Source: an uncultured virus (IMG/VR IMGVR_UViG_3300046008_001858) (Duplodnaviria; Heunggongvirae; Uroviricota; Caudoviricetes). Taken from it: 20,000 nucleotides of DNA. Position 1 is the stretch's first letter; each line of letters starts with the position of its first letter. The notes under the pieces were generated by a model. That model was not told the origin of the DNA and did not search any database. It saw nothing but the letters and a program-made list of their open reading frames with translations. The position numbers were made by a program, and so were the translations under genes. The stretch lies in IMG/VR virus record IMGVR_UViG_3300046008_001858. One strand, given 5' to 3'. Shown here piece by piece: positions 2,817 to 12,203 of this stretch.

Positions 2817-3236
2817 ATGGATGAGTTAAATTTTTTATATAGAAAAGCTGAAGAACCGTCAAAAGACATGTCTGAATATTGGAAATATACTATTTCTAAA
2901 AATGAATATCCAAAACATACAGAATATGGTGGAAAATGGCTAATTTTTTGTGATAAAAAAACAGTTGACAATACTTGGATACGATTGCAGGATATTCAAC
3001 AAAAAGGTATGCTTGGAAATGTAATGAAAGTAGCAACAGCACTATCAGCAATGCGCTTTAATGGACAACATGTAATTTGTATATATACTTATGACTCTCG
3101 AGATAATAATGACGTAATACGTGTCAGAGATAGTTTAAAATCGATTGGATTTAAGGACCCATTAAACTATAAAAGAGATATCGAGACAAAGAATGGAGTT
3201 TATGGAAATGAAAATGAATTTTTCTTAACAATTTAA
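2817..3236 (+). CDS. DUF1917 / BLES03-like (eIF4E-like fold) protein
   Basis: Motif order GGKWLIF...VDNTW...KVAT...HVICIYTYD..D..DV.RV...YK.D..T..GVY matches the DUF1917 pattern as I recall it. AGGAG RBS. Confidence 0.75.
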   Translation: MDELNFLYRKAEEPSKDMSEYWKYTISKNEYPKHTEYGGKWLIFCDKKTVDNTWIRLQDIQQKGMLGNVMKVATALSAMRFNGQHVICIYTYDSRDNNDVIRVRDSLKSIGFKDPLNYKRDIETKNGVYGNENEFFLTI

Positions 3237-3411: not shown

Positions 3412-4497
3412 ATGAAAAAAGTACTATTATTAAATTTAATTTCTATAAATTTAATTTTTGGATCTGATACATTTATTAATCCATTACCTACTTCTGTTAA
3501 GTCTATAGATAATGGTGGAACTTTACAGGCTATAGATGCCTATAAAGATGGCATTGGAGCTGAATTAATGGATAAACCAGGTGTAGCTACAGATAATAGT
3601 GCATTTAACACTCTTTCTTTAAAATATGGTGAGGCAGCCAAGACAAATAATACAACAATAGTTGATCAAGTTATTAATGGAACTGGTTCAGCTGCAGATA
3701 AAATTATTGCTGGTAAATTAACATTAAATGGATCAGCATGTAATGACAGTAATGCTGCAACAACTGGTGAAACATGGTTAAATGGATCATGTCAAGGTGG
3801 AACAAATACAAATGGTAATCCTTGTAACGACGGAAATTCGCAAACTATTAATGATATTTACACCAATGGTATTTGTGCAGGAGCAATTCCATTATCATGT
3901 AATGAAATAAAAATCGCATTACCATCTTCAATTACAGGAAACTATACAATTGATCCAGATGGTTCAGGTGGTAATAGTCCATTTGTAGCTTCTTGTGATA
4001 TGACTACAAATGGCGGTGGATGGACTTTAGTTTTTTATTCAAATAGTGATAATGTTTCAAGAGCGACAATTTCTAGTGGAGATTGGAATAATGGGCCAGC
4101 AATTAATTTTTCTCGTTTATGGTCAATGAGAAATATAAAAAATAATGGGGTTTATGAATTTTATGTAAAAGATAGTTCTATAATAGGAAGAGATATTTGG
4201 TTTACGCAAACCAATTCTTATATCTCTAATCCAATTGGAAATAATTTCTTACAATTGGGAGGAAATTTATATTATTCTAGTCAAACAGATGGAACAACAT
4301 GGCAAGGACTATCAACTGGTAATTATGGAAATACAGCATTTCAAGCAAGTTGTACATTAGCTATGGCGTCAGAAGGTCATTCTTGGACATATTGTTTACA
4401 AGATCAATTAACAGGTAGCTATAATACTGGACCTTGGTTTTATAATGGTGGATATGACGCAGGCTCACAACAATGGGTTCAAGTTTGGCAAAAATAG
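3412..4497 (+). CDS. Secreted modular protein, family copy 1: conserved N-domain + 2 Cys repeats + fibrinogen-like C-domain
   Basis: Signal-peptide-like N-terminus. N-domain shared with 15507-16670 and 19707-end. SCNEIK...GNYTIDPDG...CDMTTNGGGWTLV is the fibrinogen-related (CDxxxxGGGW) signature. Confidence 0.85.
   Translation: MKKVLLLNLISINLIFGSDTFINPLPTSVKSIDNGGTLQAIDAYKDGIGAELMDKPGVATDNSAFNTLSLKYGEAAKTNNTTIVDQVINGTGSAADKIIAGKLTLNGSACNDSNAATTGETWLNGSCQGGTNTNGNPCNDGNSQTINDIYTNGICAGAIPLSCNEIKIALPSSITGNYTIDPDGSGGNSPFVASCDMTTNGGGWTLVFYSNSDNVSRATISSGDWNNGPAINFSRLWSMRNIKNNGVYEFYVKDSSIIGRDIWFTQTNSYISNPIGNNFLQLGGNLYYSSQTDGTTWQGLSTGNYGNTAFQASCTLAMASEGHSWTYCLQDQLTGSYNTGPWFYNGGYDAGSQQWVQVWQK
3727..3891 (+). 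repeat. Two in-frame Cys-pair repeats (NGxxCND..T.....NGxC.G)
   Basis: NGSACNDSNAATTGETWLNGSCQGG and NGNPCNDGNSQTINDIYTNGICAGAIP. Confidence 0.85.
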
Positions 4498-4576
4498 TAT
4501 TTTTTTATTTAAAAATACTATAACAAAATAATACTTTTCATTTTATTGAATTGTAATTTTAACAAAAGGATTTATT

Positions 4577-4792
4577 ATGAGTGAATTAGACACTTTAAAT
4601 AAAGAAGTCATGGAAAGAATTGAGTTACTAGCAGATTCTTATTGTTTATTACTTAAACAAAAACAAAAAGAAGAAGCAGTTAAAATGTCTGAAATTATTA
4701 AGTTTTTTTCAGATTTATATAAATGCGCAGATAAAAACAATAAAGAAGAATTGCAATCAATTTTAAATGAATTAATTGCAAATGAAAGCTAA
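4577..4792 (+). CDS. Hypothetical helical protein (71 aa)
   Basis: AAAGGA RBS, open frame, followed by a hairpin. Confidence 0.75.
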   Translation: MSELDTLNKEVMERIELLADSYCLLLKQKQKEEAVKMSEIIKFFSDLYKCADKNNKEELQSILNELIANES

Positions 4793-4793
4793 C

Positions 4794-4813
4794 GTCAGAC
4801 ATTTTTGTCTGAC
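4794..4813 (+). terminator. Hairpin GTCAGACA-TTTT-TGTCTGAC
   Basis: Perfect 8-bp inverted repeat immediately after the stop codon. Confidence 0.6.
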
Positions 4814-4841
4814 TAAAATTCTTATAGAATATAAACTTATT

Positions 4842-4862
4842 TTAAGAATAATTAAATATAAT
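4842..4862 (+). promoter_or_regulatory. Putative sigma70-type promoter for the ncRNA locus
   Basis: TTAAG-N10-TATAAT, the same pattern seen upstream of several genes in the window, with no credible ORF downstream. Confidence 0.5.
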
Positions 4863-4977
4863 TCGATTGAGTTGATCATCTCGTTTAAAATGATATCCTT
4901 TGTAAAGCCTACTAAAAGTTTAGTTAGGTCGATAATATAGATTAAGGATCGGAAAACTGTTCGGTCGAGGATTCTAT

Positions 4978-5152
4978 TATATAGTGGCGAAAGATAGACG
5001 CAAATTAATAATTGATAGTGAATTAACACAAGTCTGTGTAAAGTTGTAGTTCCTGTGTGGGTAATGCTAAATCATAGACATACTACCAAAATTGGTAGTA
5101 AAAACTTTTATTAATTCCTACAATTTATAGGTGGTAGGCCTATAGCTATATT
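4978..5152 (+). ncRNA. tRNA-like RNA 1 with oversized anticodon-arm insert
   Basis: Acceptor ATATAG/CTATAT; D-arm TG-GCG-AAAGATAGA-CGC; 9-bp stem AATTAATAA(5003-5011)/TTATTAATT(5108-5116) enclosing ~96 nt with internal hairpins; T-like arm ATAGG-TGGTAGG-CCTAT. Confidence 0.6.
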
Positions 5153-5241
5153 AATTAAATTAATATCTGGTTCGATTCCAGTTGGTGGAAGTAACTTCGT
5201 GCGTACTCAAATGCTATTCCATGGTGGAAAATTTTTTTAAT

Positions 5242-5427
5242 AATGAAGTGGCGGAATATAGACGCTAATCAGGATAGGTGCAGAGTTTGAGTTGTACAAC
5301 ACAAAATAACTCGTTTCAATCGTGGCAAGGGGATGTACACCTGGCAATGTCAAAAAGAGCACTTTTCATGCAACGAAAGTTGATCAAGAATTTTATTCGA
5401 AGATGGTGAAAGTCCCATGACTTCATA
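5242..5427 (+). ncRNA. tRNA-like RNA 2 with oversized anticodon-arm insert
   Basis: Acceptor ATGAAG(5243-5248)/CTTCAT(5421-5426); tRNA-Leu-like D-arm TG-GCG-GAATATAGA-CGC; ~110-nt structured insert; T-like arm ATGG-TGAAAGTC-CCAT. Confidence 0.6.
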
Positions 5428-5670
5428 AGTTTACAAAAGTAAACCGTTTTGAACATTACGAAAAATGTCTATCGAGGTGCTAGAACCAGCGTAGCAAACT
5501 AGAAGTAATTTAACACTGAATAAATCGGGTTTAAATTATAGTTTACTGTCTTAACAGGGATTGTGGCTTGAGAGCAAGGTAGCCGAGAAAACTTCTTGCA
5601 GAGTAGATTATCAATCATCTACCAGAGTTGAATAACTCAATAAAATTCCTACAGACGTGTAGGTAATTTT
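5428..5670 (+). ncRNA. Putative multi-hairpin structured RNA of unknown class
   Basis: Successive stems GTTTAC/GTAAAC, ACATT/AATGT, TAATTTAA/TTAAATTA, GGCT/AGCC, GTAGAT/ATCTAC, GAGTT/AACTC and CCTACA/TGTAGG. GC is higher than in flanking intergenic DNA and the track shows no ORF here. Confidence 0.45.
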
Positions 5671-5754
5671 ACCTTTATTATGTTGATTAAATATTTTTAT
5701 TAAGATAAATATCTAACTAATTTTTAAGTTACTACTCATTTATATTCTCTTTAA

Positions 5755-6225
5755 TTACTTAATTTGTATTCCTAATGATTTAAATATAAAAGTTATTATT
5801 AATCCAATAATAATCGCTATAATAATAGATATTATTATTCCAACAATAACGCTACCAGCAGATTGCTTCATATCATTATTTTCGATTGTTTTAAAAAATT
5901 TACCTTTAATTTTAATATTATTATCATTTAAATAAATTATTGTGTATTGATAAAGTCCAAATCCTAATCCCATAACTAAAAATTGTGTCATTTTAAAATC
6001 GACATAAGTCATTATTGACATAATAATTAGTATTGAAATAAATCCTATAGCATAAGTAATATTTCTTTTTTTGTAATCTCCCATAGATTCATAATTTTTT
6101 GCACAAAAGTACATTCCAGCCGCTAAACCACCAATAACTGTTCCGAACACTATTTGTGTTGGAGAAAAGAACTTACCTTTAGGGGTTATATTATTTTCAG
6201 ATACTTCTTTAATATTATTTACCAT
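5755..6225 (-). CDS. Hypothetical integral membrane protein (~4 TM)
   Basis: GAGGA RBS; several hydrophobic segments; motif FFSPTQIVFGTVIGGLAAG...N...G. Confidence 0.8.
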   Translation of the reverse strand: MVNNIKEVSENNITPKGKFFSPTQIVFGTVIGGLAAGMYFCAKNYESMGDYKKRNITYAIGFISILIIMSIMTYVDFKMTQFLVMGLGFGLYQYTIIYLNDNNIKIKGKFFKTIENNDMKQSAGSVIVGIIISIIIAIIIGLIITFIFKSLGIQIK

Positions 6226-6474
6226 CTAATTTTATTCCTCCATATTGAATTATATTATGATCGACAGCAAATAAACTTGCTATTAATAATCTTTTTGTCA
6301 TTATTTTCTCCTGTTTTATGGCCGTTTTACGGTTATAGTATTTATCGAAGTTGAAGTATATCTTATTTTTTTAATAAAAATATATTTTGCATGGTTATTA
6401 TATTTATTTATACAATGATAAGTCAAATTTTAACATTTTTTATAATTATTGCGGATATTTTTACGGCCATTAAA

Positions 6475-8025: not shown

Positions 8026-10047
8026 ATGCAAAAAAATATTTTAATTTCTTCATTAAGTTTGATTACATTCTTAACGATTGAAAGCAATGCTTCCAACTTA
8101 TCTGTGTCTTCAAATGAAGATCAAAATATTTCACTTGAATTAAGTGCTGCTCCAAAACCTGGCGTCGATTATACAAGAACATCTCAATTTCTTCAAACAA
8201 GATACACAACATCTCAATTATCACAAATTAATGCACAAGTAGCTCATAATAATGGCTTTACAGGTGGTAATCTATCTAAAACATTATCATATACAAAAGT
8301 TGCTTCTGATACATCTAATAGAAATTTGCAGACAGTTGTTGCGGTATTAGATAGTGGAATCAATGCAACACACGATGATTTAAAATCAGTAGGTAAAATT
8401 GAAGCATTTAAAGATTTTACAAGTACACAAACAGTTGCTTATGATAATTTTGGACATGGAACAATGGTTTCTTCTATTATTGCTGGAGATCGTCAAAGTG
8501 CTACAGATCCTTTTTATGGTATTGCTTATGGAGCTAATTTAATTGAAGGCCAAATCATAACATCTAGTGGAGGAACTAACAATATTCTTTTACAACAAGG
8601 AATTGATTGGGTTGTACAACAAAAAACATTGTTAGATAAACCTAATGTTAAACAAGTTGTTTCTTTAAATCTTAGCTTAGGAACTAATGATTCTAGTTTT
8701 ATTAATACTAGTTTTAAAAATTCATTATTAAATGCATTAAATTCAGGATTATCAATTGTTTCAGCTGCTGGTAATGAAGGACTTGATTGTAAGGATACAG
8801 GAACAGGAATTAATGGTAAATGTAGTTTCCCAGCTGCAGCACCTTGGGTTAATTCTGCAGATACAGCTTCTTATTTAAATAAAAGCGGAGCTTGGGTTGT
8901 TGTTGGTTCTGTTGATAGAACAAATAAAATATCAGCATTTAGTAATAGAGCTGGAGTATCAAAAAGTAATTACATTGTAGCTCCTGGTGAAAATTTAATT
9001 GGTGACTCTAATACTGTTAATAATGGATATGTAGTTGGTTCAGGAACATCTTTTGCTGCACCACTTGTCTCAGGTGCTTTAGCTTTATTCGCTCAAAAAT
9101 GGCCATATTTACAAGGAAGACAACATGCACAAATCATGTTTGATACAGCAACAGATCTTGGTACACCAGGAATTGACGATATATATGGTAACGGATTGTT
9201 AAATTTAACAAAAGCTTTTAATCCTGTTGGAGTTATTGCAATTCCTACTGGTACAAAAAGTGTATTTTCAAAATCAATACAAACAACAAACAATACATCT
9301 TTAAAAACAAGTACAGCAATATCTTTAAAATCATTAACTTTGGATAATAGTATTGTAGTAGATTCTTATAATAGAGATTTTTCCGTAAGTTTAAATAATG
9401 CGGTATCAACAACAGGTTCAAGTCCTGTTGATTTTAAAAATTTCATGACATTTAATTATGGTGATATGCTTTTTGGTGTTGATCAAAGTCGAGATATGTT
9501 AATGGTTGGATATAAATTCAATGATAGCTCAAAACTAAAAGTTTCTTATGACAATACGTTTTTAGGAACTCAATCAGATGGAGCCTTATCTATTGGTAGT
9601 GCAAATAGTATTTATGTAAATTATGATAAAAACGTAGTTAGTTATAATGATTTCGTACTAAATGTTAATGGAACATATGCATATGCTGAAGCAAATACAG
9701 CAAATAATAGTGTTATTACAGATTTATCATCTGCTCAAGCTATTGGTGGTGAAATTACAGCTATGTATAAAGATTTTGGATTAGGATATGAAATTCCATT
9801 AAGAACTATTAATGGAAGTGCTTCTTTAAATACAGCAACTTCTGTTGATTTAGATGGCAATCTTATTTATACTCAAGATAAAACAAGCTTAAATCCAGAT
9901 TCATTTCAACAAGTTTATTCAGTGTTTTATCAAAAACAAATGCAAAATTTATATTTCCAAACAAAACTAAGTAGAACAAATGACGCTTATGGTATTAATA
10001 ATCTTGCGAGTAATGATATTAAAGTAATGTTAAATTATTTTTACTAA
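8026..10047 (+). CDS. S8 subtilisin-family serine protease with putative C-terminal beta-barrel (Sec-exported)
   Basis: Catalytic Asp (VAVLDSG), His (FGHGTMV), oxyanion Asn (SAAGNE) and Ser (GTSFAAP). TATDLG..GIDD.YG.GLL motif. Ends in LNYFY. Confidence 0.92.
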   Translation: MQKNILISSLSLITFLTIESNASNLSVSSNEDQNISLELSAAPKPGVDYTRTSQFLQTRYTTSQLSQINAQVAHNNGFTGGNLSKTLSYTKVASDTSNRNLQTVVAVLDSGINATHDDLKSVGKIEAFKDFTSTQTVAYDNFGHGTMVSSIIAGDRQSATDPFYGIAYGANLIEGQIITSSGGTNNILLQQGIDWVVQQKTLLDKPNVKQVVSLNLSLGTNDSSFINTSFKNSLLNALNSGLSIVSAAGNEGLDCKDTGTGINGKCSFPAAAPWVNSADTASYLNKSGAWVVVGSVDRTNKISAFSNRAGVSKSNYIVAPGENLIGDSNTVNNGYVVGSGTSFAAPLVSGALALFAQKWPYLQGRQHAQIMFDTATDLGTPGIDDIYGNGLLNLTKAFNPVGVIAIPTGTKSVFSKSIQTTNNTSLKTSTAISLKSLTLDNSIVVDSYNRDFSVSLNNAVSTTGSSPVDFKNFMTFNYGDMLFGVDQSRDMLMVGYKFNDSSKLKVSYDNTFLGTQSDGALSIGSANSIYVNYDKNVVSYNDFVLNVNGTYAYAEANTANNSVITDLSSAQAIGGEITAMYKDFGLGYEIPLRTINGSASLNTATSVDLDGNLIYTQDKTSLNPDSFQQVYSVFYQKQMQNLYFQTKLSRTNDAYGINNLASNDIKVMLNYFY

Positions 10048-10118
10048 AAGTTCTTTTTTAATTTTATTTTAAATTTATTCTGATAAAATAACATAATTAA
10101 AATAAAAAGAGAGAATCC

Positions 10119-12203
10119 ATGAAACAAAAAATTCTATTATCGTCATTAAGCTTAATTGCATTTTCATTAGTTGGTTGTAGTGGTGGAGGTGGAGGTGGCC
10201 CTTCAGTTCCAACACAAGTAATCATTCCTCCACCAACAGATACTAATACAAGTACTGAAACAAATACTACAACACCTCCTGTAGTTCCTCCTCCATCTGG
10301 TCCTGGCGTTGATTATACAGATCCGTCACAATTTGTTCAAACAACAAACATTCCTTTACAATTATCACAAATTAATGCTCAAGTAGCTTATAATAATGGT
10401 TTTACTGGTGGTAATCTATCTGAATCTACAACATATACAACTGTTGCTTCTGATACGTCAAATAGAAATCTACAAACAATTATTGCGGTATTAGATAGTG
10501 GAATCAATGCAAATCATGAAGATTTAAATTCAACAGGTAAAATAGAAGCTTTTAAAGATTTTACAGCAACAAATAGTGTAACTCCTTATGATAATTTTGG
10601 ACATGGAACAATGGTTTCTTCTATTTTAGCAGGAACAAGACAAGATGTTAATGATACATATTACGGTGTAGCATACGGTGCACACTTAATTGAAGGTCAA
10701 ATTATTACCTCTGCTGGAACAACTGATAATATTATATTGAAGAATGCGATTGACTGGGCAGTTCAACAAAAATTAGCACTAGATGTAGCAAATGTTAAGC
10801 AAGTTGTTGCATTAAATTTAAGTCTAGGAACTACTGATTCAAGTTTTGTAAATACAACATTTAAAAATTCATTATTAGCAGCATTGAATACAGGAATGTC
10901 AATTGTATCAGCGGCAGGAAATGAAGGTCTTGATTGTTTGGATACAGGCACTGGAATTAATGGAAAATGTAGTTTCCCAGCTGCCGCACCTTGGGTTAAT
11001 CCTGCTGATACAGCATCTTATTTAACAAATAATGGTGGATGGGTTGTTGTTGGATCTGTTGATTCAAATAATAATATTTCTGCATTTAGTAATAAAGCAG
11101 GTGTAACAAAAAGTAATTATATTGTTGCTCCTGGTGAAAATCTTATAGGAGCTGCTTATAATCAAAATGACGGCTATAGAGTCGGATCAGGAACATCTTT
11201 TGCAGCACCATTAGTATCTGGAGCTTTAGCTTTATTTACTCAAAAATGGCCTCACTTATCAGGAAGACAACATTCTCAAATTATGTTTGATACTGCAACT
11301 GATCTTGGTGCTCCAGGAATTGACGATGTATATGGAAATGGGTTATTAGACTTAAGTAAAGCATTTAATCCAGTTGGAACAGTTGCTATTCCTACTGGAT
11401 TAACAAATGTTTTTAATGGTCAATCAACACAAAATGTTGTTAATACATCTTTTAAAACAAGTTCAAGTATTCTTTCATTAAAATCTTTAACTTATTTGAA
11501 CAATACAATTGGAGTTGACTCTTATAATAGAGATTTCACAATGAACTTAACAAATTCAATTTCTACTACTGGTACAAGTCCTGTAGATTTTAAAAATTTC
11601 ATGACCTTTAATTATGGAGATGTTCTTTTTGGTGTAGATTCAGCTAGAAATATGCCTTTAGTAGGATATAAATTTAATGATAACTCAAAAATAAAAGTTT
11701 CTTATGATAATACATTCCTCGGGACTCAATCAGAAGGTGCTTTGTCAATTGGTAATTCTAATACAATTTATGTTAATTATGAAAAAGTTTTAGTTAATGA
11801 AGAAAATTTTAAATTGAATTTTAGTGGAAATTATGCTTATGGTAAAGCAAACACAGCTGCAAATAGTATTATTACTGATATTGATTCTGTACAGGCTATC
11901 GGTGGTGAAGTAACAGCTATGTATAAAGATTTTGGTGTTGGCTATGAAATTCCTTTGCGTGCTGTAAGTGGTTCTATGTCTTTTAATACACCTACAAGTA
12001 TTGATAATAGTGGAAATATTATTTACACTCAAAATACTTCTAGTTTGAATCCAGATACATTTCAACAAGTATATTCTATGTTTTATCAAAAACAAATGAA
12101 TGATTTTTATTTACAAACAAAATTAAGCCATACAAACGATGCTTATGGTATTAATAATCTTATTAGTAATGATTTAAAAGTTAGCTTAAATTATTTCTAT
12201 TAA
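10119..12203 (+). CDS. S8 subtilisin-family serine protease, lipoprotein paralogue
   Basis: Lipobox LVGC followed by a poly-Gly and Pro/Thr linker. Same D/H/N/S motifs and co-linear with 8026-10047. Ends in LNYFY. Confidence 0.92.
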   Translation: MKQKILLSSLSLIAFSLVGCSGGGGGGPSVPTQVIIPPPTDTNTSTETNTTTPPVVPPPSGPGVDYTDPSQFVQTTNIPLQLSQINAQVAYNNGFTGGNLSESTTYTTVASDTSNRNLQTIIAVLDSGINANHEDLNSTGKIEAFKDFTATNSVTPYDNFGHGTMVSSILAGTRQDVNDTYYGVAYGAHLIEGQIITSAGTTDNIILKNAIDWAVQQKLALDVANVKQVVALNLSLGTTDSSFVNTTFKNSLLAALNTGMSIVSAAGNEGLDCLDTGTGINGKCSFPAAAPWVNPADTASYLTNNGGWVVVGSVDSNNNISAFSNKAGVTKSNYIVAPGENLIGAAYNQNDGYRVGSGTSFAAPLVSGALALFTQKWPHLSGRQHSQIMFDTATDLGAPGIDDVYGNGLLDLSKAFNPVGTVAIPTGLTNVFNGQSTQNVVNTSFKTSSSILSLKSLTYLNNTIGVDSYNRDFTMNLTNSISTTGTSPVDFKNFMTFNYGDVLFGVDSARNMPLVGYKFNDNSKIKVSYDNTFLGTQSEGALSIGNSNTIYVNYEKVLVNEENFKLNFSGNYAYGKANTAANSIITDIDSVQAIGGEVTAMYKDFGVGYEIPLRAVSGSMSFNTPTSIDNSGNIIYTQNTSSLNPDTFQQVYSMFYQKQMNDFYLQTKLSHTNDAYGINNLISNDLKVSLNYFY

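What the first reader, a model, noticed from the sequence alone, without database searches (positions are those of the whole stretch)
4978..5427. Two tRNA mimics with the same non-canonical architecture but different sequence
Seen in both units: a 6-bp acceptor-like stem, a tRNA-Leu-type D-arm (AG-TG-GCG-RAWNATAGA-CGC), a closing stem around a ~100-nt multi-hairpin insert in place of the anticodon loop, and a T-like arm with a non-TTC loop (TGGTAGG / TGAAAGTC). Both have 2 extra nt before the 3' acceptor strand and no encoded CCA. The acceptor stems differ in sequence yet both pair (ATATAG/CTATAT vs ATGAAG/CTTCAT), which is internal covariation. Unit 1 may form a pseudoknot (TTGTAG 5044-5049 with CTACAA 5118-5123). 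Inference: a tRNA scaffold carrying cargo RNA. It could serve as a decoy for anticodon nucleases, as a processing signal, or be a tRNA with an unusual intron.
Basis: partly seen in the sequence, partly recalled or inferred. Interest (0 to 1): 0.8.

Follow-up and report, generated by a model that had tools for sequence, protein, structure and literature searches.

The report
Anticodon-less leucine-tRNA-frame RNA pair
Two neighbouring genes encode RNAs that keep the upper body of a leucine tRNA but carry unrelated inserts where the anticodon should be; they belong to a large family, found mostly in phages and not found in Rfam or in my paper searches, whose job is still unknown.

Summary
Units 4978-5152 and 5242-5427 (+) share a 7-nt acceptor-type closing stem, the TG-GCG-RAANATAGA-CGC arm, a long insert, and a T-type hairpin with a non-TTC loop.

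They are not chance and not decayed tRNAs. A covariance model built only from 30 members elsewhere scores them 56.7 and 41.6 bits; the next best hit in the window is 13.3.

The family has 93 distinct members in hand. It is mostly phage or prophage borne and often sits beside ordinary tRNA genes on the same strand. Its acceptor and T stems covary strongly: 96% of cells paired, 0 of 500 shuffles as good.

The frame derives from tRNA-Leu; one phage carries a stepwise series of paralogues. There is no anticodon arm: 4 of 93 against 2.9 expected. The inserts are unrelated to each other, forming 85 clusters among 93. ARAGORN and Rfam 15 do not find these RNAs, and three paper searches found no description.

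In lake metatranscriptomes the whole gap, about 4880 to 5640-5773, is assembled as one RNA contig.

Function is unknown. My best guess is a non-decoding tRNA-Leu-derived chassis that gives a variable RNA module its fold and stability. The intron and anticodon-nuclease-decoy readings are not supported.

The parts
4880..5672 (+). Transcribed non-coding gap holding both units. The apparent RNA 5' end is at 4879/4880. RNA contigs run to 5638 or 5773.
   Evidence: Metatranscriptome contigs X4 (916 nt, depth 79.8) and X8 (760 nt, depth 19.5) both start at 4879. X4 carries an adapter as a loose end there. A DNA contig of run X2 runs through that point. X13, from another study, covers 4993-5280 and 5329-5526. 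The strand is inferred from the G-U excess in the stems and from the adapter orientation; it is not shown.
4978..5152 (+). Unit 1: a full member of the tRNA-Leu-frame family (acceptor 4978-4984/5146-5152, D-type arm 4987-5001, insert 5002-5124, T-type arm 5125-5145).
   Evidence: R2 56.7 bits; R1 81.2 bits (but the unit was in that model's seed); fold z -3.3.
5003..5116 (+). Unit 1 insert domain closed by a 9-bp stem (5003-5011 with 5108-5116), with internal hairpins.
   Evidence: Sequence; MFE fold; insert MFE z -3.2. No homologue of this insert was found.
5167..5189 (+). Lone canonical tRNA 3' half in the spacer: CTGG-TTCGATT-CCAG, then TTGGTGG-A.
   Evidence: Sequence. No tRNA is called here by ARAGORN or by Rfam at E<=10. 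No matching 5' acceptor strand was seen in the stretch read.
5242..5427 (+). Unit 2: a family member with an irregular T stem (acceptor 5242-5248/5421-5427, D-type arm 5251-5265, insert 5266-5396, T-type arm about 5397-5420).
   Evidence: R2 41.6 bits; R1 68.8 bits with 4 non-standard T-stem pairs; fold z only -1.5.
5648..5672 (+). Terminator-like hairpin CCTACA-GACG-TGTAGG with a T-rich tail. It also reads as a terminator on the - strand.
   Evidence: The X8 RNA contig ends at 5638, just before it; the X4 contig runs past it to 5773.

Best explanation
Identity (about 0.9 likely). Both units are genes for non-decoding RNAs of a large, mainly phage-borne family that descends from tRNA-Leu.

What the frame keeps:
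- a 7-bp closing stem, often 8 bp;
- U8-G9;
- the 3-bp GCG/CGC D stem;
- the Y-C-R-U junction before the T stem;
- a T-type hairpin that stacks on the closing stem.

What has changed:
- the tip of the D loop has lost G18-G19;
- the T loop is UGNRAGU or UAUCRAAU instead of UUCRANY;
- the T stem is usually 7 bp;
- the anticodon and variable arms are replaced by a 45-265-nt insert that differs between phages.

Mechanism (inferred, about 0.4 likely; the confidence figure given for this explanation refers to this part). The frame is a self-folding chassis. It is transcribed with phage tRNAs or late genes. Its compact tRNA-like upper body gives the RNA defined ends and stability, possibly through RNase P and RNase Z, as is known for other tRNA-like modules. 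The remodelled elbow and the missing anticodon keep it out of translation. The insert is then the phage-specific working part.

In this window two such modules are made as parts of one RNA of about 0.76-0.9 kb.

Shown: family membership, stem covariation, tRNA-Leu descent, absence of an anticodon arm, phage context, and presence of the gap in RNA libraries. Inferred: processing, stability, and any activity of the insert.
For: Membership:
- R2, built from 30 non-window members, scores the units 56.7 and 41.6 bits against 13.3 for the next best hit.

Size and habitat of the family:
- 23 of the 66 genome contigs pattern hits score 40.6 bits or more with R1; the other 43 score 30.9 or less at the pattern site.

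Structure on this strand as RNA:
- 96.2% of 1533 cells are paired, 446 cells are changed on both sides, and 0 of 500 shuffles reach this.
- The T stem covaries although I did not select for its pairing.
- G-U 46 against A-C 5 in 1106 stem cells.

Descent from tRNA-Leu:
- The D arm equals that of a true tRNA-Leu(aag) in L062.
- L145 carries three paralogues with the same acceptor and T stems: a tRNA-Leu-like gene (RF00005, 40.8 bits), a copy with a GG D loop and a TATCGAAT T loop, and a full chassis.

Non-decoding:
- An anticodon stem-loop sits at the canonical place in 4 of 93 against 2.9 in shuffles.
- ARAGORN in the window; in intron mode its only call among the 93 is the tRNA nested in L099.

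Insert variability:
- 85 blastn clusters among 93 inserts.
- Lengths run from 78 to 293 nt, median 135.
- One insert is a whole tRNA (L099).

Context:
- The element sits in prophages between a late regulator or sigma factor and terS-terL-portal in Paenibacillus (2), Neobacillus and Chryseobacterium.
- 20 of the 80 viral loci have ARAGORN calls within 1.5 kb (the script's denominator reads 81). In 18 these are tRNAs that flank the element, always on its strand. L099's call is the nested tRNA, and L102 has only a tmRNA call and no element.
- 107 of 117 flanking ORFs are on the element's strand.

Expression:
- The gap is one RNA contig in two samples, with depth 79.8 and 19.5. The upstream gene has depth about 3 in X4 and none in X8.
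Against: - Nothing shows processing. Only assembled contigs were available, so RNA ends, strand and level are hints at best.
- The ends are less tRNA-like than the body. The bases just outside the stem pair in 65 of 93 members against about 38 expected, and 13 of 93 extend by 4 bp or more against 2.3.
- Position 1 is G (as G-C) in only 29 of 93, and pair 1-72 is broken in 17 of 93.
- The base after the 3' strand is not conserved (A 37, T 23, C 22, G 11) and CCA follows in 7 of 93.
- A plain tRNA body would serve equally well as a processing handle. The conserved non-canonical D and T loops therefore argue that the frame itself has a partner.
- The inserts are only weakly more stable than shuffles (mean z -0.6; 30% have z above 0; unit 2's insert -0.28).
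- No antisense target beyond chance lies in the 20 kb.
- This window shows no phage hallmark gene and no comparator for its own locus was found.
- Retrieval bias: family members were fetched with the exact D-arm pattern, so D-arm invariance is partly by construction, and A2 is fitted to the model.
Confidence: 0.4

Rival explanations
1. The frame itself is the active part. It mimics the upper body of a type II (Leu-like) tRNA and binds or titrates a factor that reads the tRNA body: a host tRNA enzyme, or an anti-phage toxin acting on the acceptor/T-arm half. The insert only blocks decoding and is free to drift.
For: - The D-loop and T-loop sequences are conserved across phages of Firmicutes, Bacteroidota, Chloroflexota, Planctomycetota and Campylobacterota hosts, while the inserts are unrelated.
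- The inserts are only weakly structured.
- Multi-copy arrays fit dosage: 3 tandem copies in L078 and L120, 5 copies in one 1.4-Mb genome.
- Members that keep GG in the D loop also keep C56 in the T loop, which suggests the elbow is under selection.
Against: - No partner is identified, and no conserved neighbouring gene stands out.
- The acceptor end is not conserved: discriminator, CCA and first pair all vary. This is odd for a mimic of an acceptor-end substrate.
- The 7-bp T stem makes the stack 14-15 bp against 12 in tRNA, so the mimicry is imperfect.
Confidence: 0.25
2. It is a cis-acting punctuation or stabilising element of polycistronic phage transcripts, comparable to the t-elements of plant mitochondria. 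The fold marks a cleavage site or protects mRNA ends, and the released RNA has no job of its own.
For: - Recurrent placement at module borders: after a late regulator and before terS/terL. Of the 82 flanking ORFs scanned (82 of 117 candidates), 11 are terminase or portal and 6 are transcription regulators.
- The element is on the same strand as its neighbours in 107 of 117 cases.
- The closing stem often extends beyond 7 bp.
Against: - A punctuation signal needs no 45-265-nt insert and no conserved loop sequences.
- Tandem arrays of 2-3 units (window; L078; L120) and a position inside tRNA clusters fit genes better than signals.
- In the window no gene follows on the + strand before the terminator-like hairpin.
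Confidence: 0.12
3. Decayed tRNA-Leu genes or recombination scars between tandem tRNA-Leu copies, with no function.
For: - tRNA fragments occur in and around members: the window's lone T arm at 5167-5189, and a T arm inside the L032/L116/L120 inserts.
- Unit 2 has an irregular T stem.
- Inserts differ freely.
Against: - Compensatory changes keep 14 stem pairs across 93 members.
- The non-canonical loops are conserved across phyla.
- Related pairs keep insert helices through changes on both sides, for example ACACAC/GTGTGT against ACACAG/CTGTGT in L007/L041.
- The locus is present as a deep RNA contig.
Confidence: 0.05
4. Intron-containing tRNA-Leu genes that yield a normal tRNA after splicing.
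For: The frame is tRNA-Leu-like, and tRNA-Leu is a classic host of group I introns (recalled knowledge, not from a call).
Against: - No anticodon stem-loop flanks the insert.
- ARAGORN in intron mode calls none of the frames; its single call among the 93 is the tRNA nested in L099.
- No Intron_gpI or other Rfam match.
- Inserts as short as 46 nt, unrelated to each other.
- The D and T loops are non-canonical, so even the joined exons would not be a standard tRNA.
Confidence: 0.03
5. A DNA-level site (attachment, packaging or replication site) rather than an RNA.
For: It lies next to terminase genes in several prophages. One member lies inside a 30-bp inverted repeat (L131).
Against: - The strand asymmetry of wobble pairs, G-U 46 against A-C 5, fits RNA on this strand.
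- It is consistently co-oriented with tRNA genes.
- It is present in RNA libraries as a distinct contig.
Confidence: 0.03

Closest known systems
Bacterial and phage tRNA-Leu (type II tRNA; Rfam RF00005)
   Same: - 7-bp acceptor stem.
- TG at positions 8-9.
- 3-bp GCG/CGC D stem with a GAA...AGA loop frame.
- Y-C-R-T junction before the T stem.
- T-type hairpin stacked on the acceptor.
- Paralogy with a tRNA-Leu-like gene in L145, and an identical D arm in the true tRNA-Leu(aag) of L062.
   Different: - No anticodon arm.
- The D loop lacks G18-G19.
- The T loop is TGNRAGT in 52 of 93 and TATYRAA in 26 of 93; TTCRA occurs in only 3 of 93.
- The T stem is mostly 7 bp.
- Not found by RF00005 or ARAGORN.
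Phage T4 species 1 and 2 RNAs (rnaC, rnaD) and phage T5 RNA1, RNA2, RNA3, annotated in GenBank as small or tRNA-like stable RNAs of unknown function
   Same: Phage-encoded, non-decoding, tRNA-sized or larger RNAs that sit in tRNA gene clusters on the tRNA strand, with unknown function (annotations).
   Different: No sequence or structure match to the family model. The best R1 score in either region is 9.3 bits, and that falls on T4's real tRNA-Leu. Whether they have a Leu-type frame was not examined further.
YrlA-type bacterial and phage Y RNAs (Rfam RF02553; Chen et al. 2014, PMC4201824; I read passages only)
   Same: A tRNA-like module without decoding function. A closing stem can run on beyond the 'acceptor'. 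They are also found in phages. The M. smegmatis YrlA module is cut by RNase P and receives CCA (passages).
   Different: YrlA has a GNCGAA(N)G Ro-binding motif, tRNA-like T and D arms, and lies within 2 kb of rsr. Here there is no Rfam YrlA match, the loops are non-canonical, and none of the 23 window ORFs scanned has a TROVE/Ro60 domain.
Plant-mitochondrial t-elements and engineered 'tRNA scaffold' RNAs (recalled; the t-element paper PMC1920247 was seen only in a search listing)
   Same: A tRNA-shaped fold used as a processing or stability handle for another RNA.
   Different: Those keep canonical tRNA features. Here the elbow is remodelled and conserved, and processing is untested.

Membership tests
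tRNA-Leu-frame ('chassis') family defined here (models R1, R2) | Full-length match to a covariance model built without the candidate | tested here: met
   R2: unit 1 scores 56.7 bits and unit 2 scores 41.6 bits; background in the window is 13.3 or less.
tRNA-Leu-frame ('chassis') family defined here (models R1, R2) | 7-bp closing stem, TG, GCG-9 nt-CGC arm, and a T-type hairpin directly followed by the 3' strand | tested here: met
   Unit 1 has all of these. Unit 2 has all of these but its T stem is bulged and mismatched.
Canonical tRNA (RF00005) | Anticodon stem-loop (5-bp stem, 7-nt loop with U33 and R37) after position 26 | tested here: not met
   Neither window unit has one. In the family it occurs in 4 of 93 against 2.9 in shuffles.
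Canonical tRNA (RF00005) | Detected by tRNA models | tested here: not met
   ARAGORN finds 0 genes in the window. There is no RF00005 hit at E<=10 in 4300-6300.
Canonical tRNA (RF00005) | G18-G19 in the D loop and a T-Psi-C-type T loop | tested here: not met
   The D loops are AAAGATAGA and GAATATAGA. The T loops are TGGTAGG and TGAAAGT.
tRNA with group I intron | The insert matches the group I intron model and the flanks rebuild an anticodon arm | tested here: not met
   No Rfam hit of that kind. ARAGORN in intron mode calls none of the frames; its single call among the 93 is the tRNA nested in L099. The window inserts are about 123 and 131 nt.
YrlA / bacterial Y RNA (RF02553) | Match to the Rfam model, and an rsr (Ro60) gene nearby | tested here: not met
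   No match at E<=10. None of the 23 window ORFs scanned has a TROVE domain. The rest of the genome is not held.
YrlA / bacterial Y RNA (RF02553) | Binding to Ro60/Rsr | not testable with these tools
   This needs immunoprecipitation.
T4 rnaC/rnaD and T5 RNA1-3 stable RNAs | Sequence or structure similarity to those RNAs | tested here: not met
   R1 over both annotated regions with filters off: the best score is 9.3 bits, on T4 tRNA-Leu. The reverse search, with models of those RNAs, was not done.
tmRNA | ARAGORN or Rfam tmRNA call with a tag reading frame | tested here: not met
   None in the window.

The most novel reading that the evidence does not exclude
The leucine-tRNA frame is a phage counter-defence decoy. 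Its conserved, remodelled upper body is read by an anti-phage effector, or by a host enzyme, that recognises the body of type II tRNAs. The hypervariable insert is the product of an arms race or of cassette-like swapping: it can even be a whole tRNA. In this window two such modules have been fixed in an abundant RNA of about 0.8 kb, in a genome stretch that does not look like a phage.
Probability: 0.12. Interest if true: 0.85.

Novelty: new variant of a known kind. Interest (0 to 1): 0.62.

Why it matters
Phage tRNA-like stable RNAs have been known from T4 and T5 for decades without a function. This family offers over a hundred natural variants with one conserved frame and freely changing inserts. 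It occurs in culturable hosts (Paenibacillus, Neobacillus and Chryseobacterium prophages), so the question becomes testable by genetics and biochemistry.

Standard annotation does not see the family: ARAGORN and Rfam 15 both miss it. Phage and prophage 'non-coding gaps' next to terminase genes and tRNA clusters may therefore hide many such genes.

The frame is also a natural counterpart of the engineered tRNA scaffolds used to express recombinant RNAs.

Tried and rejected
Comparators for the window's own locus:
- No whole genome is held for the window.
- I searched for relatives of the flanking proteins: the 361-aa protein in viral contigs and metagenome contigs, the 156-aa protein in metagenome contigs, and the 673-aa subtilase in viral contigs. 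None was found. The inserts, the pseudoknot and the leader and trailer of the 0.8-kb RNA therefore could not be tested by comparison.
- Earlier notes of this scan by place and by sequence returned nothing.
- The spacer's T-arm pattern in viral contigs gave 2 hits, both inside coding sequence and unrelated.

Deposited phage records:
- BLAST of the gap, the whole window, one whole family member and its 32-nt conserved 5' end gave no family member. Sensitivity for such short conserved blocks is low.

Other tests that led nowhere:
- Antisense targets of the units or of the whole RNA within the 20 kb: the longest exact matches are 12-14 nt, against 12-19 nt for shuffles.
- Protein Atlas on a 387-aa ORFan: no usable lead to the organism.
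- NCBIfam, PHROGs and a tblastn of one subtilase do not show whether the window is phage or cellular.
- The promoter scan lists no sigma-70-like site just upstream of 4880. A TATAAT at 4857-4862 lies too far upstream for a start at 4880, so that end may be a processing site.

Limits of the RNA evidence:
- Parts of the stretch without RNA contig cover (4568-4878, and beyond 5773) prove nothing.

Rows left out:
- L033, a 296-nt candidate from my script, scored only 29.1 bits as a partial R1 match and was left out of the alignments.
- 35 of the 117 flanking ORFs were not sent to PHROGs.

Papers:
- Three full-text searches listed no paper describing this family. I read only their listings and abstract starts.

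Full report
**The observation**

The window is AT-rich (about 27% G+C). It carries bacterial-type genes: a GGDEF-EAL protein, two S8 subtilases and many ORFans. Positions 4793-5754 hold no credible ORF.

Read in the register of their homologues, the '2 extra nt' are the two outer pairs of a 7-bp T stem. Unit 1 forms all seven. Unit 2 forms them only with bulges. ARAGORN finds no tRNA in the window, and Rfam 15 finds nothing at gathering scores or at E<=10 in 4300-6300.

**A real family**

An exact scan for the shared D-arm motif in 185,579 species genomes gave 66 loci. With model R1, 23 of them score 40.6-106 bits over the full length. The other 43 score 30.9 bits or less at the pattern site, that is, for the motif alone. 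One of those 43 is a genuine tRNA-Leu(aag) with the same D arm (L062).

Of the 80 fetched, 70 score 38.9 bits or more, 8 score 26.7-34.5, and 2 have no hit.

The combined alignment A2 has 96 hits, 93 of them distinct. Its 17 model pairs are standard pairs in 96.2% of 1533 cells, with 446 cells changed on both sides; 0 of 500 shuffles reach this, and slid partners give 34-43%.

Caveats on that evidence:
- I picked the seed members by acceptor complementarity and by the T-loop motif, so acceptor pairing in A1 is partly by construction. T-stem pairing was not selected and still covaries.
- A2 is fitted to the model.
- D-arm invariance reflects the search pattern.

Wobble pairs are strand-specific, G-U 46 against A-C 5, so the structure is RNA on the given strand.

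Because both window units were in R1's seed, I built R2 from 30 other members. It scores the units 56.7 and 41.6 bits, against 13.3 for the next best hit in the window.

**What the frame is**

The frame is that of a type II tRNA-Leu:
- a 7-bp acceptor whose seventh pair is G-C in 88 of 93 members;
- TG at positions 8-9;
- a 3-bp GCG/CGC D stem;
- a Y-C-R-T junction;
- a T-type hairpin followed at once by the 3' acceptor strand.

In contig L145 a tRNA-Leu-like gene (RF00005, 40.8 bits) and two family members share the same acceptor and T stems. They differ stepwise in T loop, D loop and middle part.

The elbow is remodelled. The D loop has lost GG. The T loop is TGNRAG[TG] in 52 members, TATYRAA in 26, TTCRA in 3, and other in 12 of 93. 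The few members that keep GG also keep C56.

There is no anticodon arm. A 5-bp/7-nt stem-loop with U33 and R37 sits at the canonical place in 4 of 93 members against 2.9 in shuffled inserts, and anywhere in the insert in 52 against 47.5. This check does not depend on ARAGORN, which needs a canonical T loop.

**The inserts**

- They run from about 45 to 265 nt.
- They fall into 85 blastn clusters among 93.
- As a class they are only slightly more stable than shuffles (mean z -0.6).
- Related pairs keep helices through compensatory changes (L007/L041, L023/L133).
- One insert is a complete tRNA (L099). Three related inserts hold a canonical T arm.

**Where the family lives**

In bacterial genomes, 8 of the 10 wider contexts I annotated are prophage or mobile-element like. 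In two Paenibacillus, one Neobacillus and one Chryseobacterium the element lies between a late regulator, sigma factor or NinG and (HNH)-terS-terL-portal, on the gene strand. L078 and L208 are unclear.

In the viral loci:
- 20 of the 80 have ARAGORN calls within 1.5 kb (the script's denominator reads 81). In 18 these are flanking tRNAs, always on the element's strand. L099's call is the nested tRNA. L102 has only a tmRNA call and no element.
- 107 of 117 flanking ORFs share the element's strand.
- Of the 82 flanking ORFs I scanned, 11 are terminase or portal and 6 are transcription regulators.

Tandem arrays occur: 3 units in L078 and in L120, and 5 copies in one 1.4-Mb Bacilli genome.

**This window**

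No phage hallmark gene was found in the 20 kb, and no relative of its proteins or DNA in the collections I could scan. I cannot say whether it is a cellular genome, an island or a large phage.

Public runs place the DNA in lake and other freshwater metagenomes.

Evidence from assembled RNA contigs:
- In two samples of one study the gap is a single contig: 4879-5773 at depth 79.8 and 4879-5638 at depth 19.5.
- The gene upstream has depth about 3 in one run and none in the other.
- Both contigs start at 4879. One continues there into an Illumina adapter, which points to a dominant fragment end at 4879/4880.
- A DNA contig runs through that point.
- A run from another study covers 4993-5280 and 5329-5526.

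Contigs cannot give strand, level or true ends, so this is a hint that the whole gap is made as one abundant RNA or precursor of 0.76-0.9 kb. Between the units lies a lone canonical tRNA 3' half (5167-5189).

**Mechanism**

Shown: a conserved, tRNA-Leu-derived, non-decoding RNA fold on this strand, which is phage-linked and whose sequence is present in RNA libraries.

Inferred (about 0.4): the frame is a folding, processing and stability chassis for a variable module.

Against that reading:
- The ends are not very tRNA-like. There is an extra outer pair in 65 of 93 members against 38 expected, and the stem extends further in 13 of 93.
- G1 occurs in 29 of 93.
- The discriminator is variable, and CCA follows in 7 of 93.
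- The conserved odd loops suggest the frame has a partner of its own; this is the second reading (0.25).

Punctuation (0.12), pseudogenes (0.05), an intron-bearing tRNA (0.03) and a DNA site (0.03) fit less well.

**Comparison with known RNAs**

- T4 rnaC/rnaD and T5 RNA1-3 are the same kind of thing: stable tRNA-like RNAs in phage tRNA clusters, function unknown. They do not match the model.
- YrlA Y RNAs share the idea of a tRNA-like module with an extended closing stem and RNase P/CCA processing (passages of PMC4201824). Their model, Ro-binding motif and rsr linkage are not met here.

Three full-text searches found no description of this family (listings only). Earlier notes of this scan describe the same 'leucine-tRNA chassis' family in other phage windows. 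Those are leads, not independent support.

**Verdict**

This is a real member pair of a widespread phage-type RNA family that I did not find in Rfam 15 or in my paper searches: a new variant of the long-known tRNA-like stable RNAs. Its function is open.

Noticed in passing
L099:1495-1641: A complete tRNA (ARAGORN Val-AAC; RF00005 43.7 bits) is nested inside the insert of a family member: a tRNA within a tRNA-like frame.
   Followed up: partly
L145:405-491, 1058-1195, 1495-1645: Three paralogues in one viral contig share identical acceptor and T stems. They range from a tRNA-Leu-like gene to a full chassis, which looks like the evolutionary path caught in one genome.
   Followed up: partly
L131:1232-1524: This member is flanked by a perfect inverted repeat of at least 30 bp, so its closing stem could be far longer. 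Alternatively it was inserted into a palindrome.
   Followed up: no
window 5167-5189: A lone canonical tRNA 3' half (T arm CTGG-TTCGATT-CCAG plus TTGGTGG-A) lies between the two units, with no matching 5' half. Similar canonical T arms sit inside the inserts of L032, L116 and L120.
   Followed up: partly
L078:7149-7557 and L079:7347-7925 (genome G004): A 1.4-Mb Bacilli genome from a metagenome carries five family copies: three in tandem, and two next to a transposase and a primase-helicase.
   Followed up: partly
L019:1081-1456, L102:1632-1950, L115:1050-1369; L035:323-407: ARAGORN calls tmRNA-like genes in L019 and L115 next to family members, and in L102, which has no member. Rfam gives a sub-threshold tmRNA hit in a tRNA array in L035. 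These may be phage tmRNA-like genes or false calls.
   Followed up: no
window 2817-3236 and 3412-4497: One small protein has a Bles03-type domain (E 1e-16; weak IF4E similarity). A 361-aa protein carries a fibrinogen-like GGGWT domain. Both are eukaryote-flavoured domains in a bacterial-looking stretch.
   Followed up: no
window 8026-12203: Two tandem S8 subtilases (673 and 694 aa). Their best phage matches are proteases of large Bacillus phages, at 25-32% identity.
   Followed up: partly
window 4883-4892 with 5445-5454: In the minimum-energy fold of the whole 4880-5672 RNA, a 10-bp helix joins the leader to the region after unit 2 and so encloses both units. It is untestable without homologues.
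   Followed up: no
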